Source of the DNA: an uncultured bacterium
GTDB lineage: Bacteria > Planctomycetota > UBA8108 > UBA1146
Direction of reading: 5' to 3'
Length of the DNA stretch: 64,000 nucleotides
NCBI GenBank assembly: GCA_937876125.1
Contig: CALEHF010000263.1
Coordinates: 3,025-67,024, forward strand
Of this stretch, positions 20,277 through 59,497 are shown piece by piece. The translations under genes and the position numbers were made by a program. Below the pieces are notes generated by a model. The model worked only from the letters and a program-made list of their open reading frames with translations, was not told where the DNA came from and made no database searches. The first letter of the stretch is position 1, and every line of letters begins with the position of its first letter.

Positions 20277-21533
20277 TTACGGCTGGTCGTCCGCGTCGTT
20301 GTCGCAACCGAGGCCGTCACCCGGGGTCGGATCGAGATCCGCGGTCGGGAACGGAGCGCTCGGCGGCGCACCTTCACTGAACTGGTAGAGGAAGATCAGA
20401 ATCGCGTCGTTCACCGCAAGGTCGGCATCGTCGTCGGTGTCACACGCGTCGTCGCACACCGGATCCGGGCCACCCTGGAACAGGAAGTTCAGGAGGTAGA
20501 TGCCGTCTGCAATGTTGACGAGAGCGTCGCTGTTGCAGTCGCTGCGCAGGAACGCGTTGAAGTTGACGATCGTCACGGCGCCATCGACCAGGCTCGGCGC
20601 GTAGAGGCCGGCTTGGCCGAAGACCACGCCGTTGTTCGCGGGCGGGCTTCCGAGGCCGTCCGTGAACGCGATCGCGCTCGAACCGACGCCAACGCCGTTC
20701 CAAGTGATCGTAGCGAGCGCGGTGCTCGCCGGCGAAGCGGCGATGAAGTTGTCGAGCGGCGACGTCGTGTCCATGATCAGACCGATGACGAGCTCGCCCG
20801 AGGCGGTGCCCGGCTGAACCTCGAAGAAGTCCGCGCCGGCGGAGTTCGCGACCGAGGCGATCGTGATGACGCTGTCGTCGTAGGTCACAGAGATCGAGGC
20901 CGCGTCGGCGGCACCGAGAGTCACGTTGTTGAAGGAGATCGTCGAGTCCACCGTGGCGCCGAGGAGACCCGTAGCCGAGCTCGCGACGAGCTGGTTCGGG
21001 TCGATGACGTCAATGTTGCCCGCAACTGAAACCGGCGCAATGCTGCTGCCGCCGACCACTACGACCATCGCGACCGGCGGGGTGCCGAGCGTGTCGCAGG
21101 GGGTCACCGGGGTATCCGCGGTTCCGAGGATCGTGTAGTCGACCGTCAAGATGTCGAGCGACGGGCTCGGCGGCAGGACGAGACAGCCGGTGAGGCACAT
21201 GACCACACCGAGGGTCGCTCCTCCGGGGTACGTGGCGAGGTCGATGAAACCATCCTCGTCCGCCAGGAAAGTATCGGCACCCACGGTTGCAAGATCGACT
21301 TGCAGTGCAAGAGGGTCGGAGCAGAGTCCGAAGGACCATCCCTGAAGATCTGCCCCCAAACTTGAGTCAAGGGTCACCGTCGAGGAGACCGGGTCTCCGG
21401 TCGAACCAGATCCGCTAGAGGCCGCCAGCACGTAGTTCGGATCTTGTCCGAATGCAGTCCCCGCCGTGAGAACCATCGCTAGGACAGTACTCGCTACGAG
21501 GCCGCCTGTTCCGAGTCCAAGCTTCATCGCCAT
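20277..21533 (-). CDS. Secreted protein with C-terminal double dockerin-like module (family member A)
   Basis: Signal peptide (MAMKLGLGTGGLVASTVLAMVLTAGTAFG). C-terminus SDCNSDALVNIADGIYLLNFLF...PVCDDACDTDDDADLAVNDAILIFLYQF...GCDNDADDQP. Confidence 0.65.
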   Translation of the reverse strand: MAMKLGLGTGGLVASTVLAMVLTAGTAFGQDPNYVLAASSGSGSTGDPVSSTVTLDSSLGADLQGWSFGLCSDPLALQVDLATVGADTFLADEDGFIDLATYPGGATLGVVMCLTGCLVLPPSPSLDILTVDYTILGTADTPVTPCDTLGTPPVAMVVVVGGSSIAPVSVAGNIDVIDPNQLVASSATGLLGATVDSTISFNNVTLGAADAASISVTYDDSVITIASVANSAGADFFEVQPGTASGELVIGLIMDTTSPLDNFIAASPASTALATITWNGVGVGSSAIAFTDGLGSPPANNGVVFGQAGLYAPSLVDGAVTIVNFNAFLRSDCNSDALVNIADGIYLLNFLFQGGPDPVCDDACDTDDDADLAVNDAILIFLYQFSEGAPPSAPFPTADLDPTPGDGLGCDNDADDQP

Positions 21534-23893: not shown

Positions 23894-23914
23894 CGCCCCT
23901 CACCCTTCGTCGGG

Positions 23915-33370: not shown

Positions 33371-34804
33371 TCAGCAAGCCGGATTCGAAGCGTCGCACGT
33401 GACTGCATCGGCATCGGTATCGGCTCCGCAGCTTCCGGTCGGCGGCGGAAGCGGCGGGGCACTCGGAACGAACAACGATCCCAACAAGAAGATCGCATCG
33501 GCGATGTTGATGCTGCCGTCGTTGTTCCCGTCGAGTGCCTCGTCACAAGGGATGAAGAGCCCCGTCGTGAAGAGGGCGTTCAGTTGGAAGATCGCATCCG
33601 CGATGTTCACCCCGCCATCGGAGTTCGCGTCGCCGCGCTCGAACAACGCGCCACCCACCGGTGGACAGTTGTCATAAAGAGCCAACCGCGCCGCTGCCGC
33701 TCCTCCCGCCGCTGCGAACGACCCTCCGGTGTAGAGCCCGGCATCCAAGCCACCTGCCGGGGCAGGAAGAAACGTCAGTGTCCGCACATCGGCATCGGTC
33801 CCCGCGCCGAGTGTAGAGAATCCGATGCCATCCCAGGTCGCGATGTGGGAGGCCGCCATCCCGCCCACCGACGTGAACGAGCCGCCGAAAGCCAGGCGCG
33901 GGACGCCGTCGATCGTTACCGAGCTCGCCAGACTGAACACGGTCGCGTCGGCTCCGCTCCCACTGCCCGCGATCGCGGACCAACCGAAGGTGTCCCAACG
34001 GGCGATGTGAAGAGCAGACTCGATGTCCGCGGCGGTGAAGTCGCCCCCGACGATCAGACTGGACTCGAAGTTGGAAATTGTCCAGACCGTGTTGTTCACA
34101 CCGAGGCCGAGAGGGAAGAAGTTCGTCCCGTCGAAGCGCGCGATGTGAGAAGCGCCGACCGATCCGATGGTGTTGAAGAAGCCCCCGATGTAGAGGGAAG
34201 GGCCGTTGCCGTCGCCGAGATCGTGAGTGTGGAGGGCGAACAGTTCACCGCCGACATTGCCGTTTCCCGCCGAGAGCCAGGTCGACCCGTTCCACGCCGC
34301 GAGACCCTCGGCGAAGTTGCCGCCGGCGGTCTGGAAGGATCCAGCGGCGTACAGTCGCGGTCCCGTCCCCGCATCGAAGGCGGCGAACGAGAACACGCCC
34401 GCCCCTTCCATTCCCCCTCCGAGATCGGACCAGCTGGTCCCGTTGTATGCCGCCACCCGAGCGACAACGGACCCGCCGACGCCGCCGAATTGCCCGCCGA
34501 CAAAGAGTCGCGGCCCGAAGCCGTCGTTGTGAACCGTCAGCGCCCGGACCGAGCCATTGGCGAACACTCCGGTGCCGACCGCGCTCCACGAGGTGCCGTC
34601 GAAACGCGCGAGGCGAGACGGGGTCGAGACTCCGCCGATCGAGGTGAAGGAGCCTCCGACGTAGAGGGCCGGCCCGGCCCCGTAGTCGTAGACCGCGGTC
34701 GCGAACACGTCGCCGTTCGCGCCCGGATTTCCGAGAGCGACGTCCCACGAGGGAGTGCACTGGGCGGCGGCCGATGGAGCCAGCAGAAGGAGCAGGGTCG
34801 CCAT
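33371..34804 (-). CDS. Secreted beta-propeller-repeat protein with C-terminal double dockerin-like module (family member B)
   Basis: Signal peptide MATLLLLLAPSAAAQ. ~10 repeats of GxFTxIGGxxxxxIARFDGTxWSxLG. C-terminus GDANSDGGVNIADAIFQLNALF...PCDEALDGNNDGSINIADAIFLLGSLF...PPLPPPTGSCGADTDADAVTC. Confidence 0.65.
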   Translation of the reverse strand: MATLLLLLAPSAAAQCTPSWDVALGNPGANGDVFATAVYDYGAGPALYVGGSFTSIGGVSTPSRLARFDGTSWSAVGTGVFANGSVRALTVHNDGFGPRLFVGGQFGGVGGSVVARVAAYNGTSWSDLGGGMEGAGVFSFAAFDAGTGPRLYAAGSFQTAGGNFAEGLAAWNGSTWLSAGNGNVGGELFALHTHDLGDGNGPSLYIGGFFNTIGSVGASHIARFDGTNFFPLGLGVNNTVWTISNFESSLIVGGDFTAADIESALHIARWDTFGWSAIAGSGSGADATVFSLASSVTIDGVPRLAFGGSFTSVGGMAASHIATWDGIGFSTLGAGTDADVRTLTFLPAPAGGLDAGLYTGGSFAAAGGAAAARLALYDNCPPVGGALFERGDANSDGGVNIADAIFQLNALFTTGLFIPCDEALDGNNDGSINIADAIFLLGSLFVPSAPPLPPPTGSCGADTDADAVTCDASNPAC

Positions 34805-37911: not shown

Positions 37912-39060
37912 ATGTCTCGTCACGGATCCCAGCCTCGTACCGGATCACATCTAGGTCTCGAAGAGAAGCGCTGGCTCCTGGGGATCGGTCTCAGCATCGG
38001 CATCGGTGCAGTCCTGCTCGCACCGGAAAAGCTTGATGCGCAGGTCCCGTTTCGACGTGGCGACCTCGATGGCGATGGGCAAGTGGGGACGATGGCGGAC
38101 GTCTTGCTGGCGATCAACCCGTTCGCCATCTTCCCCTGTTCCGATGCCGGTGATGTGAACGACGACGGCCTCAAGAACATCCTCGATGGTGTCCACCTGG
38201 TGAACTTCCTCATCGGGGACGTGCCCGAGCTCCCCTTACCGGGGACCTTTGGCTGTGGGCTCGACCCGACCGACTTCGACGTGCTCGACTGCCATGCCTA
38301 CTCTACCTGCGCTCTGGTGACGGGCCTCCCCGCCTCACCCGATCACTCACTGCGGATCGAATCGGCGGAGGGAATCGTGGGCACGCAGATCGAGGTCTCC
38401 GTGCGATACGACAACCTATTCAATGAGCCCACTCAGGGGATCGCCCTCGGAGTCTGCCACGATGCCGGCCTCGCGACCCTCGTCAGCGTCGGGTTCGGTT
38501 CCGCGTTTTCTGAGCTCCCCGATGTATTCCTGATTCAGCAGTTTGCCGACGGTTGGACCGGGATGGCGATTTCCAGCGTCACAGGGATCGAGTTCATCAT
38601 GGGAGTCGATCAAGAGCTCTTTGTCGCCACGTACGAAACCGCAGCCAGCGGCGATCTCTCCCTCACAATCTGCGAAGGACTCGCGACGCCAGAGACGTAC
38701 ATTTCCCTCGCTGTGTCGACCTTTAGCGGGGTCGATGGCTTCGTGCCCCACATCGAGAACGGTGTGCTCACTTCGATCCCTGACCCACAGTTCAGGCGTG
38801 GTGATGCGAACGACGACGGAACGACGAACATCGCGGATGCCGTGTCCCTCCTCACCGAATTGTTCGGGAACGGCCCTGCCTCGCCCTGCGCCGATGCGGC
38901 GGACGCGAACGACGACGGCGCCCTCGACATCGGCGATCCGATCGCGGTCCTCAACACCCTTTTCGGCGGGAGCGGGCCGCCGTTGCCGGAGCCGGGATCC
39001 TCGACGTGCGGTGTCGATCCGACCGCCGATGATCTCCGATGTGCGGCGCTCTGCCCCTAG
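37912..39060 (+). CDS. Secreted protein with N- and C-terminal double dockerin-like modules (family member C)
   Basis: N-term FRRGDLDGDGQVGTMADVLLAINPF...PCSDAGDVNDDGLKNILDGVHLVNFL...PLPGTFGCGLDPTDFDVLDC; C-term FRRGDANDDGTTNIADAVSLLTELF...PCADAADANDDGALDIGDPIAVLNTLF...PPLPEPGSSTCGVDPTADDLRC. Confidence 0.65.
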   Translation: MSRHGSQPRTGSHLGLEEKRWLLGIGLSIGIGAVLLAPEKLDAQVPFRRGDLDGDGQVGTMADVLLAINPFAIFPCSDAGDVNDDGLKNILDGVHLVNFLIGDVPELPLPGTFGCGLDPTDFDVLDCHAYSTCALVTGLPASPDHSLRIESAEGIVGTQIEVSVRYDNLFNEPTQGIALGVCHDAGLATLVSVGFGSAFSELPDVFLIQQFADGWTGMAISSVTGIEFIMGVDQELFVATYETAASGDLSLTICEGLATPETYISLAVSTFSGVDGFVPHIENGVLTSIPDPQFRRGDANDDGTTNIADAVSLLTELFGNGPASPCADAADANDDGALDIGDPIAVLNTLFGGSGPPLPEPGSSTCGVDPTADDLRCAALCP

Positions 39061-39526: not shown

Positions 39527-39600
39527 GCCCCGTTAGCTCAGCTGGATAGAGCAGCCGCTTCCTAAGCGGCAGGTCACAGGTTCGAATCCTGTACGGGGTA
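39527..39600 (+). tRNA. tRNA-Arg (anticodon CCT)
   Basis: Cloverleaf: acceptor GCCCCGT/ACGGGGT, D-arm AGCTCAGCTGGATAGAGC, anticodon loop TTCCTAA (CCT), T-arm GGTTCGAATCC; discriminator A; CCA not encoded. Confidence 0.85.
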
Positions 39601-39831: not shown

Positions 39832-40749
39832 CTAGCCCTCGCTCGCATCACAGACGATCAGCGGAACCGTGCCGATCAAGGCGTCGAGCGCATCCGAGAC
39901 AGGCCCCTCGATGGTGGGCAGGATCGGGGCGAGGGCGTCCTCGATGATCGTTGCGAAGATCCCGTTGAGAATTCCGGAGATCAATCCGAGACCGGGACAG
40001 CGGGAGAAGTCGGCGACCGGGTTGGTCACCGCCGGGACGACCGATCCCGGGGTGACCCCGATGATCTCTGACGCCCCCGGCGCGACCGAGATCGTGTCGA
40101 AAGACCCTGTGAGGGACCAGTCGACCGTGATCGCGACATTGCAGCTCACGTTGATCGTGAATGCGGTGATCGTCACGGGGACCACCGGCGCACCGGCGCT
40201 GCCGGTGACCGTGAAGGTGTGAGTCGCGGCGTCGTACGTGACCGCATCCACGGACAGTTCGGCATCCGCCGCAGAGGTCTCGATGGTGACCCCCGATTGC
40301 TCGAACATCTGCGCCGGAATCACGCCGGGGAGCGGCACGGTTCCCGTGATGATCGAAAGACCCGCCGCCACGACCGTCTCGTCCACGCACGTCACCGTGC
40401 CACAGCCGATGAGGTCGAAGGTCGGATCTTCTCCGAGTTCGCCGTACGGCGGCGGGATGGGGTTGGTGCTGTCGAGGAAGAGGAAGATCAACGTGAAGAT
40501 GGTGTCGGCGCAGTCGATCGTCCCGTCATCGTTCGCGTCCGCGGCGTCATCGCAGGGGAGCGGTGCAGATCCGGGCAAGAAGAGGAAATTGAGCGTCGCG
40601 ATCGGGTCCGCGAGGTCCAGGTCACCGTCTTGATTCACGTCCCCGCGAAGAAAGGGTTGGTCGATCAGACCCGCGGTCAGCGCGGGAGTGAATCCGGTGA
40701 GAAGCGTGGCGATGGACAAGATCAGGACACGTCGCATGATCGGCTCCAA
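39832..40749 (-). CDS. Secreted protein with N-terminal double dockerin-like module (family member D); first gene inside tRNA-Arg island
   Basis: Signal peptide MRRVLILSIATLLTG; FLRGDVNQDGDLDLADPIATLNFLF...PCDDAADANDDGTIDCADTIFTLIFLF...PIPPPYGELGEDPTFDLIGC. Confidence 0.6.
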   Translation of the reverse strand: MEPIMRRVLILSIATLLTGFTPALTAGLIDQPFLRGDVNQDGDLDLADPIATLNFLFLPGSAPLPCDDAADANDDGTIDCADTIFTLIFLFLDSTNPIPPPYGELGEDPTFDLIGCGTVTCVDETVVAAGLSIITGTVPLPGVIPAQMFEQSGVTIETSAADAELSVDAVTYDAATHTFTVTGSAGAPVVPVTITAFTINVSCNVAITVDWSLTGSFDTISVAPGASEIIGVTPGSVVPAVTNPVADFSRCPGLGLISGILNGIFATIIEDALAPILPTIEGPVSDALDALIGTVPLIVCDASEG

Positions 40750-42380: not shown

Positions 42381-42840
42381 CCAACAGGAAGCCGATCCGA
42401 ACGAACTCAGCGAGCGGCCAATCCCACCACCCCGGGACCACAGACAGGTGCTGTCACCACTCGCCAGTTCGAAACCTTCGCTGAAATTGCTCCAGCAAGG
42501 CCGATTCTTCCCCGAGGCGTGGAGCCTTCAGTTCTCAGGAGTGATCTGCTCTTTCTCCAAGCCCTCCGCTTCTTCCCGGTGCTTCAGTACTGACCAAGCA
42601 AGATCAGGCCCAAGGCGGCGCCGCTCCGTCTCGATGGCGCCACTCTGAACTCCACTCTGCCCCCCACGCCCCTCCCGCCCTGCCCCCTGCACGTTCGCAA
42701 CGAGACATCGCACACACTCGGCGGCCTCGGCGTAGAAGCCGCGCGACGCCCAGGGCGATCGTCAGCAACCCAAGTCGACCCTGGAAGGAGCCCATCATCG
42801 ATTGCGGAAGCAGCGAACGCTCTGCTAAAGTCCCTCCGCA

Positions 42841-43344
42841 ATGTCCAAGTCACTCGAACTCCATCGAAGACCGCCGCAAGCGCGCCCTCTGTTTTGCCAG
42901 CTGTTCGCACTCTTGCTGATCGGGTCGAACCTCCTCGTCCCGATCCTGCACGGCTTAGCGCACACCCACTCTCCTGAGTTCATCGCGTCCGGCCCCACCG
43001 CACGCGCCTCTCACTCTCACTCTCACTCTCACTCGCACGCTCACGCGCATGTGCGAGACGGGGCATATCACCATTCGCGCTCTCCTTCCCACGCTTGTTC
43101 TGCCGCTACCAGCAGAGCAAAGCTCGCAAGCCGCGACCCAGCAAATGCGCCGGATCACGACCATCGCACCTGCCTGGTCTGCCAAGCGTTGGCGGGATCA
43201 TGGACTTGGGAACGGCCCGCTCCATCGGCGCTGTTGTGCTCCGCGAGCGGAATCACAGCCCCCACTCGCCACTCATCGGTTTCTCTTCACCGACGTCTCG
43301 ATCTCAGCGCGCGAGCGTCGCGCGCCCCACCTCTCTGGGGATAG
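42841..43344 (+). CDS. Small His-rich (HSHSHSHSHAHAH) putative metal-binding protein
   Basis: N-terminal hydrophobic segment then H-x-H repeat encoded by (CACTCT)4 hexanucleotide tandem repeat at 43011-43034; remaining sequence low complexity. Gene call moderate. Confidence 0.4.
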   Translation: MSKSLELHRRPPQARPLFCQLFALLLIGSNLLVPILHGLAHTHSPEFIASGPTARASHSHSHSHSHAHAHVRDGAYHHSRSPSHACSAATSRAKLASRDPANAPDHDHRTCLVCQALAGSWTWERPAPSALLCSASGITAPTRHSSVSLHRRLDLSARASRAPPLWG

Positions 43345-43494
43345 CGCCTCGCCGCAGTTTCTGCGGCCAGAAGCACATCGTGGCATTCTGAATAGGCCTT
43401 CCTTCGAAGGCCGGTCGATCCCCCACCATCGCCTTCGCTGCGCCCTTTCGATCGGAAGGTCGATCCGCAGCGCCGTGCGCCCAGAGGAGAAAAC

Positions 43495-44925: not shown

Positions 44926-45306
44926 CGCGCGCGCGGAGACTGGTCGCCGGAAGGAGGAAGTTCAGCGATCTCGACGTCGAGCCAAGACCGAGTCGATCGC
45001 GTGGACCACATTCTCGAGTTTGGGTGGATTGAGCGCGTCAGGATGCGACGAAGCGCACCGGCGTGAGTCATTGTCGAGGTACTGACCGGAAGCGGCAGCG
45101 AAGCATGGTGACGGATGCACAGGTAGCTGGACTCGGCTGGGGCGGACATCGCCTCCCCCTTCGCGCAATTGTGACGACTGCGGCCGCGCGCCGGGGGGCG
45201 AATTGAAAATCTTGGTTGGCGTCATGCGATCCACCGCCTACCCTCGCAACACTGATCGGGGTGCCGACGAAGCACTCCGGACCCTCCATCCAAGAGAGGA
45301 CATCGG

Positions 45307-46128
45307 GTGCCACGCATGAAGTTGCTGATTTGTTTTGCTGCCATACTTCACCTCACTCTTCCCTTGATCGGTCAGACCGGTGGTCAGTTTCAGGACTGGA
45401 AACGTGACGCTGCGAAGGCAGAGACTTCAGAGGATCGAATCGGGGCCCTCAACCGTATTGCGTGCGCGTCAGCTGAGGAGGCCAAAGCCTCCGAGATCGT
45501 GCGAGCGATCGCGGCCTCGCTGAAGGACGTCAATACCGGCGTTCGCGTACATGCCGCTTGATTACTCGGACAGTGCGAGGACCAGAACGATGCGCTGAGG
45601 AAACTAAAGTCGGCCCTCACCAGTGGCCGCAGTTCATTCCTCAAGGCACAGAAGGTCTTGAGAGTGACGGAGGACCAACGCTTTGCCACGATTCTCCGCT
45701 GGTGGGACATCAAGAACGACCCAAAGTCGGAGAGCGCGGCGGAGTCGGGGTCGTACCTCGCGGTTCTCGCGGCTGAACTCGCTCTCCTTGAAGACTACCT
45801 GGCCGCGCAGCGCAGACGAGACCGCGGACGAGAGTTCTGTCTCGCGATTTGCGAGAGCCTCTCGAAGCTGGAACAGGAGGCGGCTGCCGCCGAGGCCGCG
45901 GTCCTCAAGTTCTATGAAAAAGTCGCCGCGAAGTCGGTCGATCAGTGTGCCCCGTTCGCGCCGATTCTGCTCTCCTTCGGAACGCGACCCTGCTGGGCTG
46001 CGGTCGCAGAGTGCATCGAGGAGAACGATGCGCTTCTTCGCACCTGGAAAACGCGCCGCGAGCTCATAGACTCGTACGAGGCCAGGCGCGCCGAGGGCTC
46101 GCCGACAAAGCCTTCTCCATTCGAGTGA
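45307..46128 (+). pseudogene. Secreted HEAT-repeat protein interrupted by in-frame TGA at 45559-45561
   Basis: ORFs 45307..45561 and 45658..46128 share one frame; only stop between them is TGA at the variable position of a HEAT repeat (VRVHAA-*-LLGQ). No SECIS-like hairpin. Confidence 0.4.
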
Positions 46129-47206
46129 CCTTGTGGTCAAGAAGTAGACAAGCTTCGGAATCGGAGACACTCACCATCTTGGCAACAGTGCGGTGAGTGC
46201 GTCGGAGCAAGTGGCCGGTCTCTGAGGGCAGCGACTTCTCGCGCCACGTGGCGGTGGCGATCACCTTCTTCCCGTCATTCGACCGCGACGGGAATAAGTA
46301 GGGGTTGGGTCCGAAGAGAGCCTCTCCGACTCGAAGTGCTTCCTCGACGATCTCGATCATGGTGTCAGACAACGGCAGGTCGAAGCTACGGCCGCTCTTC
46401 ATGCGAGGTATCCGGATCGCGCGATTCTCCAGGTCGACTCAGTCTCGCCTCAGGCTCACCAGAGTCCCCGGGCGTAAACCTGAGAACAGCCCAAGCTGGT
46501 GCATGCAGCGACGAATCGGATTGTTCAACGCGACAACCTTTGCCAACCAACCGGGGAGATCCTCGGGCAAGATCACCTTGTCGGAGATTCTCTCCTTGTG
46601 ACGCGTCACGGCTGCCGTCGGGTTGGCGGGCAGGGAATCCGGGTCGTCTACCACTCGGAGTGCGAAGTCGTAGGCACTCCGCAATGCCGCCATAGACCGA
46701 TTCGCGGGGTACTTCCCGTGGTCCTTGGTGAGCTGCTCGTGGCGTGCTCGGCATGTGCTCCGTTTCAGCTCGGTGATCGGGAGCTCCGCCCAGTCCGCGA
46801 GGTACTTCGTGAGCATGTAGCGGAATCCGTCGATCGACCGGGGCGACAACTATCGCTTCGTAATGTCCGCTTCGTACTCGTCCCAGAGCCGAGCGACCGT
46901 CCAGGCCTCGGCGTGCTGAGAAGGGGCGTTGGGATCGATCCCACGCTTGATGTCAGCAAGCAGGGTCATGGCTTGTGACCGAGCGTCGTCGAGGATGATC
47001 TCCCCGACCCGGCCGAGCGTTCTCCGCACAGTCCGAACGAGCCTTCGTCGAGGCCGCTCCCCGGTGTAGAGATCAGCCTGGATCTTGAAGGACTTGGACT
47101 TCTGATTCACTTGGACGAAAAAGCCAGGGAGGGCGGAGTCGCGAAGCTGGTACGGCTTCCCGTTGAACTTGGCGTCTCGTATCTTGGCGTCGGTGAGTCG
47201 TGGCAT
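46064..47206 (-). pseudogene. Degenerate P4-type tyrosine integrase (three same-frame fragments separated by TAG and TGA, C-terminus lacking catalytic Tyr)
   Basis: N-terminal Arm-binding domain LTDAKIRDAKFNGKPYQLRDSALPGFFVQV. Core-binding fragment, then catalytic fragment with HLLRRTHRTVA / LLLDHK box II-like motifs. In-frame stops at 46850-46852 (TAG) and 46439-46441 (TGA). Confidence 0.7.
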
Positions 47207-47359
47207 GGCAGCTTCCTCTCGCGAACCGTGTGCGTGGGAAGCCCGAACCGTGTGCGAACCGTGGCACTAGCCGGTTGGCGAAGGTTCCTGTAGAAGTATT
47301 CGATACTAAGTGCTTATAGGCAAGGGACCTGACGGTCTGGGACGCGTAAGCCCTTGCGA

Positions 47360-47404
47360 TTCCTAAGCGGCAGGTCACAGGTTCGAATCCTGTACGGGGT
47401 ACTT
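47360..47404 (+). repeat. attR-like 45-bp direct repeat of tRNA-Arg 3' end
   Basis: Exact copy of 39559-39603 with no upstream D-arm/acceptor, so a fragment rather than a tRNA gene. Together with the integrase remnant at 46064-47206 it defines a ~7.8-kb integrated element (39604-47359). Confidence 0.8.
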
Positions 47405-47605: not shown

Positions 47606-47674
47606 GCAGCCGCTCGAGGGGGTGCCTCGCGGATCGTGCGGAAGACCTTTGTGGATTAGGGGCTTGAGGGGGGT
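47606..47674 (+). repeat. 65-bp direct repeat R1 (partner at 51631-51697), contains GTCTGTGACCG core motif
   Basis: First 26 nt ggatcgtgcggaagacctttgtggat identical in both copies, remainder ~80% identical. Confidence 0.75.
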
Positions 47675-47740: not shown

Positions 47741-48994
47741 TTATTCAGCGGCGTGCCCGAAAACGACGACGAAGGCGAGGATCAGAATGAGACCACCAAA
47801 TCGGATTCTCTCGAAGAAACAGCGCCAGCCACTCGTGCACTCTCCGGCGGCGAGCCAAGCATTGATACCCTGCAGCAAGTAGTAGAAGGCGAAGGCGCGC
47901 GAGGCGATGCTGATGATCTCAAAAATTTCGGCGAACCAAACGAGAGCGATCGCAGCGGCAGTGATGACGAGATAGCTGCGACGCACGTCGAGTTTTTGCT
48001 CGGTGTTCTCCGCCATGAGACCGCCGCCGCCCACGGTGTCGGCGACCGCGGCGCTGAACTGGCTCATAACTGCGGCGATGACGAGCATTGCAGGAAGCAC
48101 GGGAGAAACTTGGCGCGTGAGTTCGATGATGGCGGTCTCATCGGGATCGGTTCCTTTGAGATGAGCAAGGAGAGGGAGAGCGAGAAGAACGAAAACCACG
48201 TAGATGACGCCCGACACGAACTGCGCTTGGCGCATGCTGCTGATGCGAGTCTCGACGTCGTATCCCTCACCGAGATAGCGCGAAGTTTCGAACCCCTGCA
48301 CGATGAGGAGCAATCCAGCGAGAAGGCGGACCTGATGAAAGGGGTCATGATCCTTGATCGGGATGGTGTTCGCGAAGACTTCGCCTCCAGAACCGAGGTC
48401 GAACATGCCGAGACCGAGGAGGACCGCGGCGATGATCGCCAGCTTCACGGTGACAGAGAACGCTTCGAGCCGTTCGAGGGCGTGCAGTCCGCGGGTGAAC
48501 CCGGTGAAGCCGATGAAGACAAGGATCGAAGTGGTGAGGAGTTTTGCGTAGGCGCCGACGTCTTGACTGGTTCCATAGAGAAGGAACGAGGCGAGAAGCC
48601 GGACATAAAACGTGACCGAAACGATGTAGGCGGCGGACAGAGCAAGTCCCGAGACCTTCTCGACCAGCCAAATGCTGCGCGGGGGGATGACGTGGTTGAC
48701 AACGAGGGGTTCGACGTGGCGGATATTGAATCGAATGATGCCACCAATGCCGTAGGCGAACAGAACGATCGCAATCATCGCCACCGGGGCGGCATTTCCC
48801 ACGATCACGGCGACGAGAGGCGCCGCAACGAGAAATCCGCTTCCGATGATCGATGCCAACGGTGTGACGGTGGCCTGCCATCGGGCAGACCTCCGCACCT
48901 GGGGTGAGAACAGCCACGCGGCAGTCGCGGCCGCGGCGCCAAGGATGCCGAAGTCGATCAGGGACATAGGGTTGAGTCTACCCCTTTCCGCCAC
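47741..48994 (-). CDS. Polytopic membrane protein (transporter-like), unknown function
   Basis: About 10-12 predicted TM helices, no clear family signature. Confidence 0.5.
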   Translation of the reverse strand: MAERGRLNPMSLIDFGILGAAAATAAWLFSPQVRRSARWQATVTPLASIIGSGFLVAAPLVAVIVGNAAPVAMIAIVLFAYGIGGIIRFNIRHVEPLVVNHVIPPRSIWLVEKVSGLALSAAYIVSVTFYVRLLASFLLYGTSQDVGAYAKLLTTSILVFIGFTGFTRGLHALERLEAFSVTVKLAIIAAVLLGLGMFDLGSGGEVFANTIPIKDHDPFHQVRLLAGLLLIVQGFETSRYLGEGYDVETRISSMRQAQFVSGVIYVVFVLLALPLLAHLKGTDPDETAIIELTRQVSPVLPAMLVIAAVMSQFSAAVADTVGGGGLMAENTEQKLDVRRSYLVITAAAIALVWFAEIFEIISIASRAFAFYYLLQGINAWLAAGECTSGWRCFFERIRFGGLILILAFVVVFGHAAE

Positions 48995-49374: not shown

Positions 49375-49845
49375 CTACCCCCACCTCAACGCGAGAGCGA
49401 AGAGAGCCGCGGCCGCGAGTGGCGCGGCGGTCCTCACGTGATTCCAACGAGTCCATCGAGCGAGATAATGAGTCCAAAACTCGGCAGCGTCCTCCTCATG
49501 CGCTTCAACAGCTGCCAATCGGTTGTTCAGCGGCACGTTGAAGGCGATGGTCACGAGCAGACAGCCGATCAGGTAGAGGCCACTCCCCACGAGCGTCAGG
49601 ATGAGCGGAACACCGATGGCCTGACCGAGAGCGACGATGACCAAGGCGATACACACGACCCCCGTTCCGAAGAAAGCCCCGAGGAACCAAGGGTTCAGGA
49701 CCGTGATGTTGATCGCTTGCATGGCACGCACTCCCGATTTTTCTGGGAGTTGACCGAGAGCGCGCAACACGAAGGTGGAGGACGCAAAGAAGATCCCGGC
49801 GACCAAACCGGAGCCGAGCAGGGCAACGAAGGTCAAAATTTTGCC
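49375..49845 (-). CDS. DUF1772-like small membrane protein
   Basis: Four hydrophobic helices, pattern similar to anthrone oxygenase-like/DUF1772 proteins; ORF-track 5' end overlaps transposase stop, true start likely internal. Confidence 0.4.
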   Translation of the reverse strand, partial: GKILTFVALLGSGLVAGIFFASSTFVLRALGQLPEKSGVRAMQAINITVLNPWFLGAFFGTGVVCIALVIVALGQAIGVPLILTLVGSGLYLIGCLLVTIAFNVPLNNRLAAVEAHEEDAAEFWTHYLARWTRWNHVRTAAPLAAAALFALALRWG

Positions 49846-49850
49846 TCTCC

Positions 49851-51083
49851 TCACACATCTGTGGGTCCCGGCAGAGGCGGATCCAGCTCGATTCCACCAC
49901 GACACAGGTACATGAGCGCGATCAGCGGCTGCGGGCCGTGGAAGCCGAACGCGCGTCGCGCGATCATCCGAAGACGCGTGTTCATCTCTTCGACGATCCC
50001 GTTCGTGAGTCTCTCGTCCACGTACGCCAACACTCCGTCAAGGTGCTTCCGAATCGTTCGCGCTGTCTTCACGAACGGTTTTAGTTTCGACCGTGACGCC
50101 CAAGCTAACCAATCCCTCAATGCTCGCTCTGCCCGCCATCTTTGTTTGTACTCGAGCGCCTTTGCCAGCGTCTCTTTCAACAAGTATGCACGGAAGAGCG
50201 GCGCGTTCGACTTCTCAATCTCCCGCAGCTTCTTCTTCTCTCCGTCGTTGAGGCTCCATGGGTTCTTCAGCACGACGAAACGGCTGCGGAACAGGTCCTT
50301 GCCCTCGGGCGTGCCACGCAACTCTCGAAGCTCCTCACGTCGCACCGCATCGAAGGCGTCACTGGCCAGTCGTTGCACGTGAAAGCGGTCGAAGACCACC
50401 TGGGCATTGGGAAGATGCTCGCGAATCGCTTTGTGATAACCGGCGGACATATCGATCTTCGCCGCTTCGATCTCAGCACATCGCCTCGGTCCGAGTTCCT
50501 CGAAGAAGGAGGCGAGCGTTGTCGCTCTCGCACCAGGCCCAGCCCAGACGATGCGTCGACGGTCGTGATCCACGACAACGGTCAAGTACTTGTGTCGTCG
50601 ACGGTAACTGAACTCGTCGACTCCGATTCGTTTCAGGCCGTTGAGGCGCTCTGGATCGAGTCGATAGCCGACGACCCGATCCACGATCCGGCCCACTGTC
50701 GCCCAGGAGATCCCCATCAACTTTTGAACGGAAGTCTTGTCGGTTGACTGGGCGAGGTAAGCAGTGAGCCCCTCGAAATCGTGAGTGAAGCCGCTGTTGT
50801 GTGCAGCCCAAGGAACCGACTCCACGCGAACTCCACAGGTCGGGCAGCTCACGCGACGAGGGGCGTAGACGAGCCAGACTCGCGGGCGCCCGAGGCCGAG
50901 GTGGCGCCAACGTCGAGAGGAGACCGAGTCGAAGCCCGGCGCGGGAGCCCGACAAACGCCGCAACGAGGCAACTTGGCCCTCGGTCGCACGAAGACCAAG
51001 AGGTCCCCAGAGGAGAAGTCGAATCCCTGAACAAAGAGAGTAGTGATGCCGAGAAGTCGACGAAGTAGAGTCTTGGTGCGCAC
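49851..51083 (-). CDS. ISL3-family transposase
   Basis: N-terminal zinc-finger/HTH region (RCGVCRAPAP...CPTCGVRVESVPWA) and DDE_Tnp_ISL3 core (VDEFSYRRRHKYLTVVVDHDRRRIVW..., KIDMSAGYHKAIREHLPNAQVVFDRFHV). Confidence 0.8.
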   Translation of the reverse strand: MRTKTLLRRLLGITTLFVQGFDFSSGDLLVFVRPRAKLPRCGVCRAPAPGFDSVSSRRWRHLGLGRPRVWLVYAPRRVSCPTCGVRVESVPWAAHNSGFTHDFEGLTAYLAQSTDKTSVQKLMGISWATVGRIVDRVVGYRLDPERLNGLKRIGVDEFSYRRRHKYLTVVVDHDRRRIVWAGPGARATTLASFFEELGPRRCAEIEAAKIDMSAGYHKAIREHLPNAQVVFDRFHVQRLASDAFDAVRREELRELRGTPEGKDLFRSRFVVLKNPWSLNDGEKKKLREIEKSNAPLFRAYLLKETLAKALEYKQRWRAERALRDWLAWASRSKLKPFVKTARTIRKHLDGVLAYVDERLTNGIVEEMNTRLRMIARRAFGFHGPQPLIALMYLCRGGIELDPPLPGPTDV

Positions 51084-51306: not shown

Positions 51307-51564
51307 TCACCTACGATCTACCCACTGAGGTGTGAGGAGAGGCCGGTTATTCTCGTTCGATTCGCAACTTGTATCGCGGGTTGGGTCGAAACCGCAATCG
51401 AGCGGCGCGGGGGGCTCTGATCCCATCTGGAACAAGGAGTTCAGCAGGTTGATCGGATCCGCGAGGTCGACGTTGCCATCGTCGTTGGAATCGGATCCGC
51501 TCTGACAGGTGCTCTGGGGATCATTGAAGAGAATGATCCCGAGGAGTGTCAGAGGATCACCCAC
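51307..51564 (-). pseudogene. Truncated dockerin-like module remnant (family member E)
   Basis: Only a single repeat plus terminal Cys motif (SDSNDDGNVDLADPINLLNSLF...PPAPLDCGFDPTRDTSC); upstream body absent; lies between ISL3 and repeat R2. Confidence 0.45.
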
Positions 51565-51630
51565 ATCGACCCCGCCGTCGAGATTGGTATCACCGCGGCG
51601 GAACTGAATCTGTTCGAAGGGGGGCGGCGT

Positions 51631-51697
51631 GGATCGTGCGGAAGACCTTTGTGGATGAGGGCTTGTGGGGTGTCTGTGACCGCCTGTTGGTCAAGCC
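51631..51697 (+). repeat. 65-bp direct repeat R2 (partner of 47606-47674)
   Basis: See R1. Confidence 0.75.
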
Positions 51698-56887: not shown

Positions 56888-59497
56888 ATGACCAGCACTC
56901 GTCGCACCGCTCTTGTTCTCATTCTTTGCGTCCTCTTCAGCCAAGCCACGATCACCTCGTTCGCCCAATGCGGTGGTTCAGTGGATTTCCCATCGGCGCC
57001 GCTCCCGCTCGATCCGGGCGTCACCGCACACACCGAAGTCGCGGGGAACGCGCTCGTCCTCGAGTCGCCCCTCCTCGTCTGTCACCCGACCGCGTCCCCG
57101 ATCGCGGGAGTGAACCAGATCAGCGTCGACGGGGCGGATCAAACGGTTGTCTTCTCGTCCCCGACCCTGGCAATTCCGGGAGACGCTCCCGCGATCGATG
57201 TGATTCGCGGCGATCAGGTCTTTACCCGGGCGCTGAGCGGGGCCTTCCTGCACGCCGCCGGCGGGCTCTGCACTTCGGCCGCCGGCTACTCGGTCGGCAT
57301 TACCGATGCGGCGATCGCCGTCGTGGTCGGAGATCGGTTCGAGGAACACCCCCTCCCCCCCGGGGAACTCCCTTTGAGTGCTGCGGCGATCGGAGTCTGC
57401 CCGCAGAACGGTTCGTTCATCTTCATCTGCGTCGAGACGACGCTCCCGAGCCTCGAGTTCGTCCTCGGTTCTGAACACGAATCGGTACCGCTCTCCTCGG
57501 CGGGCGCTGCAATTCCCGACAGCTACTCGAACGGTGCGACCGGCGGCGTGCTCTACTACTCCGCGACCGAGGTCCTCTCGATCACGGCGGGAGACGCGAG
57601 CACGACTGCGCTGCCCGGCACGTACGTTTCCCACGCACCGAGCCCTGGTGGAGTGCTCGTCACGACCACCGCGGGTCCCGTTCTGATCCCGCTCCCCACC
57701 GGCTCGATCGTGCTCCCGTTCGCTCCCTGCGACGTGCCGCTCGACTCTTCGGGGCCGGACGCGACCGGCTCGGCGATCGCTATCAACACCGACGCGTGCC
57801 CCGGCGTCGACGGTTCGACCGCGACCTGGCCCGCCCTGACGGCGGTCTGCGGTGGCGGACCCTCCTTCGGATTCTGCGCCTATCCGACGATCTCGGGTCT
57901 GCGGGCGAAGGTCGCGAGTGTGCATGCGTACGCTTCGACCACCCTCGGAGGATCGATGGCTCAGAACATCACCGGTAACATTTGGACTCCGATCGGGCTC
58001 GGCCCGGGGGCTCCGGGAACGGGGAAGACGATCGTCGCGAACGCGATGGTCGGAAATCTCAACGGCGACTTCGCGTGGGCATGGGCGTTCGCTCGTGCGG
58101 CCCTCGCTTCCGCAATTCCCGTCCCGTGCATCCGCATCACTCAGGGTGTTGCCGGCGGCCACGGACTCATCCATAACGAAGGTCACCAGGCGAGCTGGGC
58201 CGCGAGGGTGAAGGATCCGCTGCGCTTCGAGGGGTGGAACGACGCCGACGATCTCAACTTGGTGATCGAACTCTCCGAAGAGATCTTCCTCCCGATCGAC
58301 CCGACCACGCACATCTTCTCCGAGACCGAATACAAGTTCGACATGGGGAGCACATTGCCCGGTCTCCCGGAGCTCTGGCAAGGAACGATCACGGCGGATC
58401 ACAATGGCGTCGATCCCCAGCTGACCGTCGAGTTCTCGAGCAATCCAGCCCTCGGTCTCGACGACAACACAATCGCCCTACTGATCGAAGCCGCGTTCTT
58501 CTACGATGTGGTCCGCGCCGGTTATGCGCTCTCGAGTGCGCTCACGATCCTCACGACGGCGATCGACGTCCCGGCGGGCGTGACCGCGGTCGACATCAAG
58601 TGCGACAGCTCGATCGCGGGCAACCACTTCGAGTCGAGCTACAACGGTCCTCCGATCACCTCGATCTGCGGCGACGGCATCGTCGAAGAAACGGAAGAGT
58701 GCGATCAGACGGGCCAACTCAGCTGCAACCCGAACTGCCAGCTGACCCCCGACAACACGATCTTGATCCTCGACGTCCCCGCGCAGCCCGGTTTCCACCA
58801 GCTGCCGGTGTTCCTCAGCAACCCGGTGCCGAGCTCTCAGTTCTCCCTCGCCATTTGCGCCCCGGGGAACGACTTCGTCGGCCTCTCCTTCCAGGGCACG
58901 ATTACAGAGCTCGTGAACCCCGAACTCGTCCTTCAACAGTTCTTCCCCGGGCAAGGGATGACCCTGCAAGTGGTCTGCGACGCGCTGCCGCCCTACAACG
59001 CTCAAATGCTGCCGCCCGGTCCGTTCGAGCCGATCGTGATCCTCGACGTCTTCGTCAACAATCCGTTCAGCTTCCAGTTCTGCGACGACGCGCTCGGACA
59101 GCAAGGTCAGCCGACCGTGCAGAACTCAGTCATGAACTTCGGTGACCAACTCGTGCTCCAAGATGGCTTCGGATTGATCACCGACGTGCACGTGGTCGGC
59201 GGACCCCAGGTGCAATTCGTGCGGGGCGACGCGAACGCCGACGGCCAGCTCGATATCAGCGATCCGATCTCGACCCTGCTCTTCCTCTTCCCGCCGACCC
59301 CGTTCGGAGCGTTCTTGCCGTGCATGAATGCGGCAGACGTGAACGTCGATGGTCTGATCGATATCGGAGATCCGATCGGCCTCCTCGGACACCTTTTCGA
59401 TCCGCTGGCGCCGCCGATGCCACAACCGTTCCCGCTCTGCGCGCCCGATCCGTTCTTGTCCGGTCTCGAGTGCCAAGTCCAGGCGCTCTGCCCGTAG
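56888..59497 (+). CDS. Large secreted protein with Myxococcus-type Cys-rich repeat and C-terminal double dockerin-like module (family member F)
   Basis: Signal peptide MTSTRRTALVLILCVLFSQATITSFAQ. CGDGIVEETEECDQTGQLSCNPNCQ repeat. C-term FVRGDANADGQLDISDPISTLLFLF...PCMNAADVNVDGLIDIGDPIGLLGHLF...PPMPQPFPLCAPDPFLSGLEC. Confidence 0.65.
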   Translation: MTSTRRTALVLILCVLFSQATITSFAQCGGSVDFPSAPLPLDPGVTAHTEVAGNALVLESPLLVCHPTASPIAGVNQISVDGADQTVVFSSPTLAIPGDAPAIDVIRGDQVFTRALSGAFLHAAGGLCTSAAGYSVGITDAAIAVVVGDRFEEHPLPPGELPLSAAAIGVCPQNGSFIFICVETTLPSLEFVLGSEHESVPLSSAGAAIPDSYSNGATGGVLYYSATEVLSITAGDASTTALPGTYVSHAPSPGGVLVTTTAGPVLIPLPTGSIVLPFAPCDVPLDSSGPDATGSAIAINTDACPGVDGSTATWPALTAVCGGGPSFGFCAYPTISGLRAKVASVHAYASTTLGGSMAQNITGNIWTPIGLGPGAPGTGKTIVANAMVGNLNGDFAWAWAFARAALASAIPVPCIRITQGVAGGHGLIHNEGHQASWAARVKDPLRFEGWNDADDLNLVIELSEEIFLPIDPTTHIFSETEYKFDMGSTLPGLPELWQGTITADHNGVDPQLTVEFSSNPALGLDDNTIALLIEAAFFYDVVRAGYALSSALTILTTAIDVPAGVTAVDIKCDSSIAGNHFESSYNGPPITSICGDGIVEETEECDQTGQLSCNPNCQLTPDNTILILDVPAQPGFHQLPVFLSNPVPSSQFSLAICAPGNDFVGLSFQGTITELVNPELVLQQFFPGQGMTLQVVCDALPPYNAQMLPPGPFEPIVILDVFVNNPFSFQFCDDALGQQGQPTVQNSVMNFGDQLVLQDGFGLITDVHVVGGPQVQFVRGDANADGQLDISDPISTLLFLFPPTPFGAFLPCMNAADVNVDGLIDIGDPIGLLGHLFDPLAPPMPQPFPLCAPDPFLSGLECQVQALCP

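What the first reader, a model, noticed from the sequence alone, without database searches (positions are those of the whole stretch)
20277..59497. Paralogous family of secreted proteins sharing a Cys-containing double dockerin-like module (6 copies in 64 kb)
Six genes (20277-21533, 33371-34804, 37912-39060 with two copies, 39832-40749, 51307-51564 remnant, 56888-59497) carry an ~85-aa module. Consensus: F-x-R-G-D-[AV]-N-x-D-G-x-x-[DN]-I-[AS]-D-[AP]-I-x-x-L-x-x-L-F-(3-7)-P-C-x-D-A-A-D-[AV]-N-x-D-G-x-[IL]-D-I-x-D-[AP]-I-x-x-L-x-x-L-F-...-P-P-[LM]-P-x-P-...-C-G-x-D-P-T-x-D-x-L-x-C. Each has two EF-hand/dockerin-type Ca-binding repeats followed by a Cys, a Pro-rich linker and a terminal CGxDPTxD..C box. 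It is usually C-terminal but N-terminal in two proteins, fused to unrelated bodies (beta-propeller repeats, Myxococcus Cys-rich repeats, unknown). This suggests a modular docking/sorting or cell-surface anchoring system whose cohesin-like partner is not in the window. The density (one member per ~10 kb) and a truncated copy next to an IS element suggest an actively expanding family.
Basis: seen in the sequence. Interest (0 to 1): 0.7.

Follow-up and report, generated by a model that had tools for sequence, protein, structure and literature searches.

The report
Cysteine-clasped dockerins with built-in cohesins
Six genes in this window carry a ~90-residue calcium-binding "dockerin" plug with an extra cysteine-stapled tail, and three of them also carry the matching "cohesin" socket. 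They therefore most likely snap together into protein assemblies outside the cell of an uncultured marine planctomycete; the plug is very common in such bacteria, but I found no description of its tail.

Summary
There are seven copies of a ~90-aa module at six loci: 13 dockerin-type Ca loops against 0.02 expected by chance.

- **Fold.** An AlphaFold2 model (pLDDT 94) matches only solved type I dockerins over its first ~60-78 residues. The last part (PxPxP...CGxDPTxDxLxC...C) matches no PDB entry, Pfam or NCBIfam model. It is as conserved as the Ca loops.
- **Disulfides.** Cys co-occurrence in 422 modules implies two: C1-C3 and C2-C4.
Cohesins are in the window. There are four cohesin modules, all inside dockerin-bearing proteins: SP-Coh-Coh-Doc, SP-Doc-Coh-Doc and body-Coh-Doc. 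One was confirmed by AF2 and Foldseek (top 50 hits all cohesins).
- **Spread.** The module family is huge: 33,654 clusters at 50% identity with E<=1e-10, mostly uncultured Planctomycetota. It is 88% C-terminal but also N-terminal or repeated. Cargo is non-cellulolytic.
- **Best reading.** This is a non-cellulosomal, "planctosome"-like cohesin-dockerin assembly system that uses a disulfide-clasped dockerin variant. Binding itself is untested.
- **Not supported.** An "actively expanding" family, or a sorting signal.

This is a new variant of a known kind, of moderate interest.

The parts
20277..21533 (-). Gene 1: signal-like N-terminus, cohesin, cohesin, Cys-box dockerin (418 aa)
   Evidence: Translation. 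Dockerin HMM 105 bits. Two cohesin-profile hits. Weak Pfam Cohesin hit, 18 bits.
21000..21446 (-). Cohesin module 1 of gene 1, with the conserved Cys pair
   Evidence: Cohesin-profile domain E=3.7e-32. Cys pair present.
20565..20990 (-). Cohesin module 2 of gene 1, with both Cys lost
   Evidence: Cohesin-profile domain E=5.5e-15. Neither Cys is present.
20283..20561 (-). Dockerin module of gene 1. Atypical Cys placement, no 'CG' Cys, four Cys in total.
33371..34804 (-). Gene 2: short signal-like N-terminus, beta-propeller (DUF5122-type repeats), Cys-box dockerin
   Evidence: Translation. Pfam DUF5122 26.8 bits and Dockerin_1 16.8 bits.
33374..33649 (-). Dockerin module of gene 2 (four Cys)
   Evidence: HMM 126 bits. 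Loops at 33497-33532 and 33596-33631.
37912..39060 (+). Gene 3: signal-like N-terminus, dockerin, cohesin, dockerin (382 aa; identical to P0121)
   Evidence: AF2 pLDDT 89, pTM 0.78. Doc-Coh-Doc is the commonest architecture among the top family hits.
38041..38316 (+). N-terminal dockerin module of gene 3. Its first Ca loop is degenerate; the Cys box is present.
   Evidence: HMM 98 bits. Only loop 2 matches the loop pattern. The family consensus shows a degenerate loop 1.
38308..38784 (+). Cohesin module of gene 3
   Evidence: AF2 gives an all-beta region at residues 141-289. Foldseek against PDB returns cohesins as all top 50 hits, E down to 8e-12, TM 0.76-0.82.
38782..39057 (+). C-terminal dockerin module of gene 3 (the canonical example: Cys 35, 75, 86 and 90 of the 91-aa model)
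39832..40749 (-). Gene 4: signal-like N-terminus, N-terminal Cys-box dockerin, ~180-aa body of unknown fold. It lies inside the tRNA-Arg-flanked island.
40384..40662 (-). Dockerin module of gene 4 (no 'CG' Cys; an extra Cys in loop 2)
   Evidence: HMM 121 bits. Loops.
51310..51615 (-). Remnant: a complete dockerin core and most of the Cys box, with no body and no signal peptide. Stop codons lie upstream.
   Evidence: The called ORF is P0079, identical in 6 metagenome contigs. A 48-nt repeat copy abuts its 5' end.
56888..59497 (+). Gene 5: signal-like N-terminus, ~590-aa unknown body, Cys-rich DUF4215/myxo_disulf repeat, cohesin, Cys-box dockerin (869 aa)
58742..59137 (+). Cohesin-like module of gene 5
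   Evidence: Cohesin-profile domain E=4.4e-08.
59207..59494 (+). Dockerin module of gene 5 (four Cys)
   Evidence: HMM 121 bits. Loops.

Best explanation
The module is a homologue of the type I dockerin: two F-hand Ca2+ loops, each followed by a helix. It carries a conserved ~28-residue C-terminal extension (PxPxP-x-C-G-x-D-P-T-x-D-x-L-x-C-x5-C). The extension most likely folds back on the dockerin core and is stapled by two disulfides. One links the inter-repeat Cys to the 'LxC' Cys, and the other links the 'CG' Cys to the terminal Cys. This would be a covalent version of the dockerin 'intramolecular clasp'.

The proteins are Sec-exported by a marine, probably planctomycete, bacterium. Outside the cytoplasm the dockerins bind, in a Ca2+-dependent way, to cohesin modules that sit in the same protein family (Coh-Coh-Doc, Doc-Coh-Doc, X-Coh-Doc). 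Adaptor-like proteins would then chain or branch into an extracellular or cell-surface scaffold. Single-dockerin cargo, such as the beta-propeller of gene 2 and the unknown body of gene 4, would be plugged onto that scaffold. This would be a non-cellulosomal, 'planctosome'-like assembly.

Shown here: the dockerin fold, the cohesin fold, the conservation of the extension, the Cys co-occurrence, the domain fusions and the distribution.

Inferred: the disulfide pairing, Ca2+ binding, cohesin-dockerin binding and its specificity, polymer or scaffold formation, and attachment to the cell.
For: Dockerin identity
- Loops and alignment.
- AF2 pLDDT 94.4.
- The profile matches PDB dockerins at E down to 5e-8, but only over the two repeats.

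Extension
- P73, G78, D80, T82, D84, L86 and C88 are 78-96% conserved in 422 modules, as high as the Ca ligands.
- Cys patterns: CCCC in 238 modules and C-C- in 105. C2 and C4 are present or absent together. The totals 2 and 4 dominate (106 and 187 of 422).

Cohesins
- AF2 and Foldseek of gene 3: the top 50 hits are all cohesins.
- The profile finds 4 cohesin modules in 3 window proteins.
- The same profile hits only solved cohesins, 28 of 28.

Domain fusion
- Doc-Coh-Doc is the commonest architecture among the 135 best representatives newly returned by the module search (43 of them). Coh-Coh-Doc and Doc-Coh-Doc-Coh-Doc also occur.
- In the window and 86 loci, every complete cohesin-bearing ORF also carries a dockerin module.

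Other support
- pTM 0.78 for the three-domain protein suggests a defined mutual arrangement.
- Signal-like N-termini.
- Cargo census without CAZymes.
- Precedents: non-cellulosomal cohesin-dockerin pairs shown to bind in archaea, and a proposed planctomycete 'planctosome' (PMC9012536, PMC6461901).
Against: - No binding, Ca2+ or disulfide experiment exists, and no multimer prediction could be run.
The Cys-Cys distances and the Doc-Coh interface were therefore not checked.
- No cohesin-bearing anchor protein (membrane, lipid or S-layer attached) was found in the window. Attachment to the cell is unexplained.
- Only about 16% of dockerin-module proteins in the genome loci carry a cohesin. Whole-genome Coh:Doc ratios are unknown.
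- Pfam scores are mostly below the gathering thresholds: Dockerin_1 25, 16.8 and 11.1 bits against 22.9, and Cohesin 18.1 against 24.1.
- The loci were selected through dockerin matches, so the statement 'all cohesins sit with dockerins' is biased.
Confidence: 0.6

Rival explanations
1. It is a partner-less Ca2+-binding stability or folding module. It could also be a module that binds something other than cohesin, such as envelope polysaccharide, peptidoglycan or host/prey surfaces. In either case the dockerin fold is reused as a Ca2+- and disulfide-stabilised cap, or as an adhesin tip on secreted proteins. The cohesin-fold domains would then be generic beta-sandwich spacers.
For: - Most module-bearing proteins (~84% in the loci) have no cohesin.
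- No anchor scaffoldin was found.
- The extension and the 99%-conserved Arg of FxRGD have no counterpart in cohesin-binding dockerins.
- Cargo includes adhesin-type domains: PKD, FG-GAP, LamG, beta-helix.
Against: - Cohesin and this dockerin are fused again and again in fixed orders: Doc-Coh-Doc, Coh-Coh-Doc, Doc-Coh-Doc-Coh-Doc.
- Helix positions that are surface-exposed in dockerins are hypervariable while the core is fixed. This is the pattern expected for specificity-determining interfaces.
- By my own recollection (not checked here), every dockerin-fold module studied so far binds a cohesin.
Confidence: 0.22
2. It is a C-terminal sorting or secretion tag, analogous to PEP-CTERM, MYXO-CTERM or the T9SS CTD. 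A dedicated export or anchoring machinery would recognise it and possibly cleave it.
For: - 111 of 126 modules end within about 20 residues of the stop codon.
- The tail is highly conserved and contains an invariant Cys.
- The proteins are secreted and very diverse.
Against: - No hydrophobic or basic tail follows the box; proteins end ...C-P-stop.
- No NCBIfam sorting-domain model hits.
- 10 modules are N-terminal and 5 are internal or of unclear position.
- One protein can hold 2-7 full modules.
- C-terminal placement is also the rule for ordinary cellulosomal dockerins.
- No conserved neighbouring sortase-like gene is present in the window.
Confidence: 0.07
3. It is a recently and actively expanding paralogous family, driven by IS elements and duplication in this genome.
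For: - A truncated copy lies beside an ISL3 transposase.
- Gene 4 lies on a tRNA-Arg-flanked island.
- Six loci occur in 40 kb.
Against: - The window modules are only 25-49% identical and their bodies are unrelated.
- The remnant and its ISL3 neighbour are identical in six metagenome contigs from different samples.
- High copy number per genome is general in these MAGs.
- The family has >33,000 clusters at 50% identity, so it is an old, domain-shuffled family.
Confidence: 0.1

Closest known systems
Type I dockerin modules of clostridial and ruminococcal cellulosomes (Pfam PF00404; e.g. PDB 1ohz, 2ccl, 4uyq, 5m2o, 6kg9)
   Same: - Two tandem F-hand repeats with DxNxDGxxxIxD loops and helices.
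- Usually C-terminal on secreted proteins.
- Near-symmetrical repeats, as in dual-binding-mode dockerins.
   Different: - ~90 aa instead of ~60-70.
- An invariant Cys in the inter-repeat linker.
- A conserved PxPxP-CGxDPTxDxLxC-x5-C extension, absent from every PDB dockerin and from the Pfam model.
- Arg of FxRGD is 99% conserved.
- Cargo is not CAZymes.
- The host is a Gram-negative-type, apparently aerobic, marine Planctomycetota-like bacterium.
Non-cellulosomal cohesin/dockerin proteins of archaea and bacteria (Archaeoglobus fulgidus cohesin, PDB 2xdh; ANME archaea; Peer et al. 2009 as cited in PMC9012536)
   Same: - Cohesin and dockerin occur in one polypeptide.
- There is no link to cellulose.
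- There are few cohesins per protein.
- 2xdh is among the top structural matches of the window cohesin.
   Different: - The Cys-box extension.
- A disulfide pair in about 21% of the cohesins.
- The recurrent Doc-Coh-Doc layout.
- Far larger family size.
'Planctosome' hypothesis for freshwater Nemodlikiaceae Planctomycetes (Andrei et al. 2019, PMC6461901)
   Same: - Cohesin/dockerin modules in Planctomycetes with no cellulolytic role.
- Signal-peptide proteins with Doc plus Coh acting as adaptors.
- A Ca2+-dependent extracellular complex is proposed.
   Different: - That model is built on an LTD-anchored cohesin protein, a Doc-HYR-Coh adaptor and Doc-tagged M12B/M14 peptidases. None of these is in the window.
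- The passages of that paper I read do not mention the Cys-box extension, its disulfides or the Doc-Coh-Doc family.
- That proposal is also untested.
Dockerin 'intramolecular clasp' (Slutzki et al. 2013, PMC3821032) and the X-module of type II/III X-dockerins
   Same: An element at the dockerin terminus packs back on the module and stabilises the Ca2+-bound fold. The extension here is predicted with pLDDT 88-94 in its main blocks, falling to 73 at the last residue, as part of one compact domain.
   Different: - The known clasps are non-covalent stacking contacts between a few terminal residues, and X-modules are separate ~100-aa Ig-like domains.
- Here the element is a 28-aa Pro-rich arm plus a Cys-bridged hairpin, inferred to be covalently stapled.

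Membership tests
Type I dockerin (PF00404, dockerin fold) | Two tandem ~22-residue segments, each with a 12-residue EF-hand-like Ca loop (D-x-[ND]-x-D-G-x-x-x-[ILV]-x-D) followed by a helix | tested here: met
   13 of 14 loops fit the pattern. Ligand positions are 85-99% conserved in 422 modules. AF2 places helices after each loop.
Type I dockerin (PF00404, dockerin fold) | Three-dimensional similarity to solved dockerins | tested here: met
Type I dockerin (PF00404, dockerin fold) | Score above the Pfam gathering threshold (22.9 bits) | tested here: inconclusive
   25.0 bits for gene 3. 16.8 and 11.1 bits for genes 2 and 4. No hit for genes 1 and 5. 38 of 80 relatives hit at E<=1e-3.
Type I dockerin (PF00404, dockerin fold) | Ca2+-dependent high-affinity binding to a cohesin | not testable with these tools
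   Needs protein biochemistry or multimer modelling. Only co-occurrence and domain fusion with cohesins were shown.
Cohesin (PF00963) | ~140-160-aa nine-stranded beta-sandwich similar to solved cohesins | tested here: met
   Gene 3 residues 141-289: the Foldseek top 50 hits are all cohesins, E 8e-12, TM 0.76-0.82. The family profile hits 28 of 28 PDB cohesins, best E 1.4e-8. For genes 1 and 5 the evidence is profile only.
Cohesin (PF00963) | Score above the Pfam gathering threshold (24.1 bits) | tested here: not met
   The only window hit is 18.1 bits. 6 of 22 family members hit at E<=0.01. These are divergent cohesins recognised by fold and profile, not by the Pfam cut-off.
Cellulosome | Dockerins borne by glycoside hydrolases or other CAZymes | tested here: not met
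   Window cargo is a beta-propeller, a Cys-rich repeat and unknown bodies. Among the 25 most frequent Pfam families listed for the 80 relatives (51 families matched in all), none is a cellulase or CBM (a sialidase N-terminal domain occurs in 2 members). DHOR, PKD, FG-GAP, cytochrome c, LamG and beta-helix are the commonest.
Cellulosome | Scaffoldin with many cohesins plus a CBM, and an SLH- or sortase-anchored cohesin protein | tested here: not met
   At most 2 cohesins per window protein. No CBM, SLH or LPXTG was found among the window ORFs scanned.
C-terminal sorting domains (PEP-CTERM, MYXO-CTERM, T9SS CTD, LPXTG) | A single, strictly C-terminal tag with a motif, a hydrophobic helix and a basic tail (or a CTD beta-sandwich), matched by NCBIfam/TIGRFAM models | tested here: not met
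   No NCBIfam hit. The tail ends ...C-P-stop without a hydrophobic segment. N-terminal, internal and multi-copy occurrences exist.
'Planctosome' (PMC6461901) | LTD-anchored cohesin protein, Doc-HYR-Coh adaptor and Doc-tagged M12B/M14 peptidases | tested here: not met
   None of these components is in the window. LTD occurs in 1 of 80 related proteins. Only the general principle, a planctomycete non-cellulosomal Coh-Doc assembly, is shared.

The most novel reading that the evidence does not exclude
The Cys-box dockerin is a distinct, undescribed dockerin class. Its disulfide-stapled extension would be part of the binding surface or a second interface. Doc-Coh-Doc, Coh-Coh-Doc and X-Coh-Doc proteins would self-polymerise through it into a covalently toughened, Ca2+-dependent extracellular protein lattice on planctomycete cells. 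That lattice would display redox enzymes, propellers and adhesins. It would be a general surface-organising system of an abundant uncultured marine lineage, with no connection to polysaccharide degradation.
Probability: 0.25. Interest if true: 0.7.

Novelty: new variant of a known kind. Interest (0 to 1): 0.45.

Why it matters
Cohesin-dockerin pairs are among the strongest known non-covalent protein connectors and are widely used in synthetic biology. Almost everything known about them comes from anaerobic Firmicutes cellulosomes.

Here a very large family (tens of thousands of sequence clusters) appears in uncultured, mostly marine Planctomycetota. It has a conserved disulfide-clasped extension, matching cohesins fused in the same proteins, and non-carbohydrate cargo.

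If binding is confirmed, three things follow:
- It defines a new dockerin subclass adapted to oxidising environments.
- It gives the speculative 'planctosome' idea concrete components that can be tested.
- It offers new orthogonal, disulfide-stabilised connector pairs.

It also shows that current Pfam and NCBIfam models under-annotate these modules.

Tried and rejected
1. A genome scan with the seven-module alignment A1 failed because it has no conserved 7-10-column stretch. I repeated it with the closer alignment A2.
2. The third word-indexed protein search, with the cohesin profile A6, returned nothing. An unbiased census of cohesin proteins, including possible anchors, could therefore not be made.
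3. The AFDB50 fold library was unavailable.
4. Peer et al. 2009 (PMC3035643) is not held. It is cited only through PMC9012536 and PMC6461901.
5. NCBIfam gave no family for the module or the tail.
6. Model coordinates and PAE are not exposed. The disulfide geometry and any intramolecular Doc-Coh contact could not be measured, so the disulfide pairing rests on Cys co-occurrence only.
7. I looked for the Cys box detached from a dockerin. All 197 boxes found sit behind dockerin loops, and the 25 apparent exceptions were regex misses. The sample was, however, selected through dockerins.
The phylum assignment rests on the nearest homologues being Planctomycetota MAGs and on planctomycete-typical neighbours (DUF7133-HEAT-cytochrome c, DUF6288).
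9. The integrin-type meaning of the 'RGD' in FxRGD was rejected. D is Ca ligand 1 and G is the usual dockerin residue; only the R is unusual.

Full report

Yes. A six-frame scan for the dockerin-type calcium loop finds 13 loops, all inside the six named loci and nowhere else in the 64 kb. Block-shuffled sequence gives 0.02 loops on average and at most 1.

The seven modules align over ~95 columns. F, R, several Asp and two Cys are invariant. An HMM built from them scores each copy at 83-126 bits.

The module is C-terminal in genes 20277-21533, 33371-34804, 37912-39060 and 56888-59497. It is N-terminal, directly after a signal-like hydrophobic segment, in 37912-39060 (second copy) and 39832-40749. 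At 51310-51615 it is an isolated remnant with stop codons just upstream.

All five full-length proteins begin with a hydrophobic stretch followed by an AxA-like site. This is consistent with Sec export, but no signal-peptide predictor was available.

**2. What is the module?**

Pfam sees only a weak Dockerin_1 match over the two repeats: 25, 16.8 and 11.1 bits against a cut-off of 22.9, and nothing in two of the proteins. It sees nothing over the last ~40 residues. NCBIfam has no model for it.

A profile search of PDB sequences aligns only the two F-hand repeats to solved dockerins (E down to 5e-8). No solved chain covers the extension.

In 422 non-redundant modules the extension is as conserved as the Ca ligands: P73 96%, G78 90%, D80 95%, T82 80%, D84 86%, L86 78%, C88 85%. 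The linker Cys is 99% conserved, and so is the Arg of FxRGD.

Cysteines come almost only in two patterns. All four conserved positions are filled in 238 modules, and only the linker Cys plus the 'LxC' Cys in 105 modules. The 'CG' Cys and the terminal Cys are therefore gained or lost together. The simplest reading is two disulfides, C1-C3 and C2-C4. C1-C3 would staple the extension to the dockerin core.

**3. Where is the partner?**

It does not.

The full 382-aa protein of gene 3 was modelled on 46 homologues (pLDDT 89, pTM 0.78). It has an all-beta domain between its two dockerins. The top 50 PDB matches of this model are all cohesins (E down to 8e-12, TM 0.76-0.82). They include the non-cellulosomal Archaeoglobus cohesin 2xdh.

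A profile of that domain finds two cohesin modules in gene 1 (E 3.7e-32 and 5.5e-15) and one in gene 5 (E 4.4e-8). The broadened profile hits only solved cohesins in the PDB, 28 of 28.

The window therefore encodes:
- gene 1: SP-Coh-Coh-Doc
- gene 2: SP-propeller-Doc
- gene 3: SP-Doc-Coh-Doc
- gene 4: SP-Doc-unknown body
- gene 5: SP-unknown-Cys repeat-Coh-Doc

About 21% of the family's cohesins, including three of the four in the window, carry a strictly co-occurring Cys pair: 42 have both, 152 have neither and 4 have one. Both partner modules therefore look adapted to an oxidising compartment.

**4. How widespread is it?**

A profile search of 1.84 billion cluster representatives gives 68,520 hits at E<=1e-3, 33,654 at E<=1e-10 and 5,191 at E<=1e-30.

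A scan of GTDB species genomes with one conserved peptide found more than 591 stretches, of which 430 were confirmed. Almost all are in uncultured Planctomycetota MAGs, often with 10 or more copies per genome. NCBI already names some of them 'dockerin type I domain-containing protein'.

In 86 loci the module is C-terminal 111 times, N-terminal 10 times and internal or unclear 5 times. Among the best representatives, Doc-Coh-Doc is the commonest architecture. Doc-Coh-Doc-Coh-Doc, Coh-Coh-Doc and chains of up to seven modules also occur.

Cargo domains in 80 relatives are DHOR di-haem peroxidases, PKD, FG-GAP, cytochrome c, LamG, beta-helix, CotH and LTD. No cellulases or CBMs appear among the listed families.

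The window's own genes recur identically in marine metagenome contigs. Its other genes are planctomycete-typical.

**5. Mechanism and rivals**

The best-supported explanation is a non-cellulosomal cohesin-dockerin assembly system. Sec-exported proteins fold with Ca2+ and disulfides. Their clasped dockerins plug into cohesins of sister proteins. Bivalent and trivalent adaptors (Doc-Coh-Doc, Coh-Coh-Doc) can chain or branch, and single-dockerin proteins are the cargo.

The repeated fusion of the two module types in fixed orders is the main evidence for a functional link. The hypervariable exposed helix positions on a fixed core fit specificity-determining interfaces. Binding, specificity, polymerisation and anchoring to the cell are all inferred, and no anchor protein was found.

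Three rivals were considered:
- A partner-less Ca2+/disulfide stability or adhesin module (confidence about 0.2).
- A C-terminal sorting tag (about 0.07). This is contradicted by N-terminal and multi-copy placement, by the lack of a hydrophobic tail and by the lack of matches to any sorting model.
This is contradicted by the 25-49% identity between copies, by a remnant that is fixed with its ISL3 neighbour in six independent contigs, and by the size and age of the family.

**6. Comparison with what is known**

By fold, the module is a dockerin and the bodies are cohesins. By Pfam thresholds, membership is borderline for the dockerin and failed for the cohesin.

It is not a cellulosome: there is no CAZyme cargo, no multi-cohesin/CBM scaffoldin and no SLH or sortase anchor.

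The concept of non-cellulosomal cohesin-dockerin systems is established for archaea and other bacteria (summarised in PMC9012536). A 'planctosome' has been proposed for freshwater Planctomycetes (PMC6461901), with components different from those seen here.

The extension recalls the non-covalent 'intramolecular clasp' at dockerin termini (PMC3821032) and the stabilising X-module of type II dockerins. It differs from both in being a short, Pro-rich, Cys-bridged arm. Full-text searches found no description of it.

**7. Verdict**

This is a new structural variant of a known kind of module in a known kind of system. The window itself supplies the missing partner. Interest is moderate (0.45): the result is not categorically new, but it gives a very large, under-annotated family and a concrete, testable assembly model for an abundant uncultured lineage.

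Noticed in passing
window 39527-47404: tRNA-Arg(CCT) lies at 39527-39601. Its 3' 48 nt are repeated (98%) at 47357-47404. This is an attL/attR-like pair bracketing a ~7.8-kb island. The island holds the N-terminal-dockerin gene 39832-40749, an Exo_endo_phos gene (41523-42380), an unknown 476-aa ORF (43495-44925) and fragmented integrase pieces (Arm-DNA-bind_3 at 46850-47206, plus the adjacent ORFs 46439-46849 and 46064-46402). It looks like a degraded integrative element carrying one family member.
   Followed up: partly
window 47614-47661 and 51614-51661: A second 48-nt imperfect direct repeat (88%) brackets a 4-kb segment. The segment holds an unknown 417-aa ORF (47741-48994), 49375-49905, the ISL3 transposase (49851-51083) and the dockerin remnant. 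The right-hand copy abuts the remnant's FRRGD, which is the truncation point. GC falls to 0.585-0.61 across 46-54 kb. The same layout is seen in metagenome contigs L001-L006. L090 shows the adjacent tRNA-Arg island layout.
   Followed up: partly
cohesin modules: window 21000-21446, 38308-38784, 58742-59137; relatives in loci L007-L086: About 21% of these cohesins have two Cys (motifs G-V-C-H-D and F-C-D) that are present or absent together: 42 have both, 152 have neither and 4 have one. This implies a cohesin disulfide. I do not recall one in clostridial cohesins, but this was not checked.
   Followed up: partly
all modules, position -2 from Ca ligand 1 (e.g. window 38791-38799): The Arg of the F-x-R-G-D lead-in is 99% conserved in 422 modules. 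The two aligned PDB dockerins have K/Y-G-D at this point. It may pair with the conserved Asp residues of the extension. The 'RGD' itself is probably coincidental.
   Followed up: no
L087 4056-5318 (also L088, L089): A close paralogue of the remnant (P0027, 105 aa, no signal peptide) sits 106 nt downstream of a 279-aa beta-helix ORF, in contigs from some of the same samples as the window genome. It is either a split or frameshifted beta-helix-dockerin gene, or a stand-alone dockerin mini-ORF.
   Followed up: no
L035 (JAUSIK010000008.1) and L063 (JAGQHR010000503.1): A 341-kb contig labelled 'Nanoarchaeota archaeon' carries three adjacent module genes, so it is probably a mis-binned planctomycete contig. 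One hit is in a 'Candidatus Eisenbacteria' MAG. Protein hits are also labelled Thermoanaerobaculia and Anaerolineales.
   Followed up: no
proteins P0248, P0252-P0255, P0259, P0260, P0278, P0293, P0350: Some ~1,000-aa proteins contain 9-12 tandem matches that cover only the dockerin core of the profile (positions ~33-100) and lack the Cys box. They appear to be arrays of core-only dockerin or EF-hand-like repeats.
   Followed up: no
window 13545-15537: This ~2-kb stretch has no ORF with the window's coding signature (high GC3). Only short overlapping ORFs of 113-194 aa are present. There is no tRNA and no Rfam hit.
   Followed up: no
window 42001-44000: The strongest GC-skew excursion of the window (-0.177) lies inside the tRNA-Arg island.
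   Followed up: no
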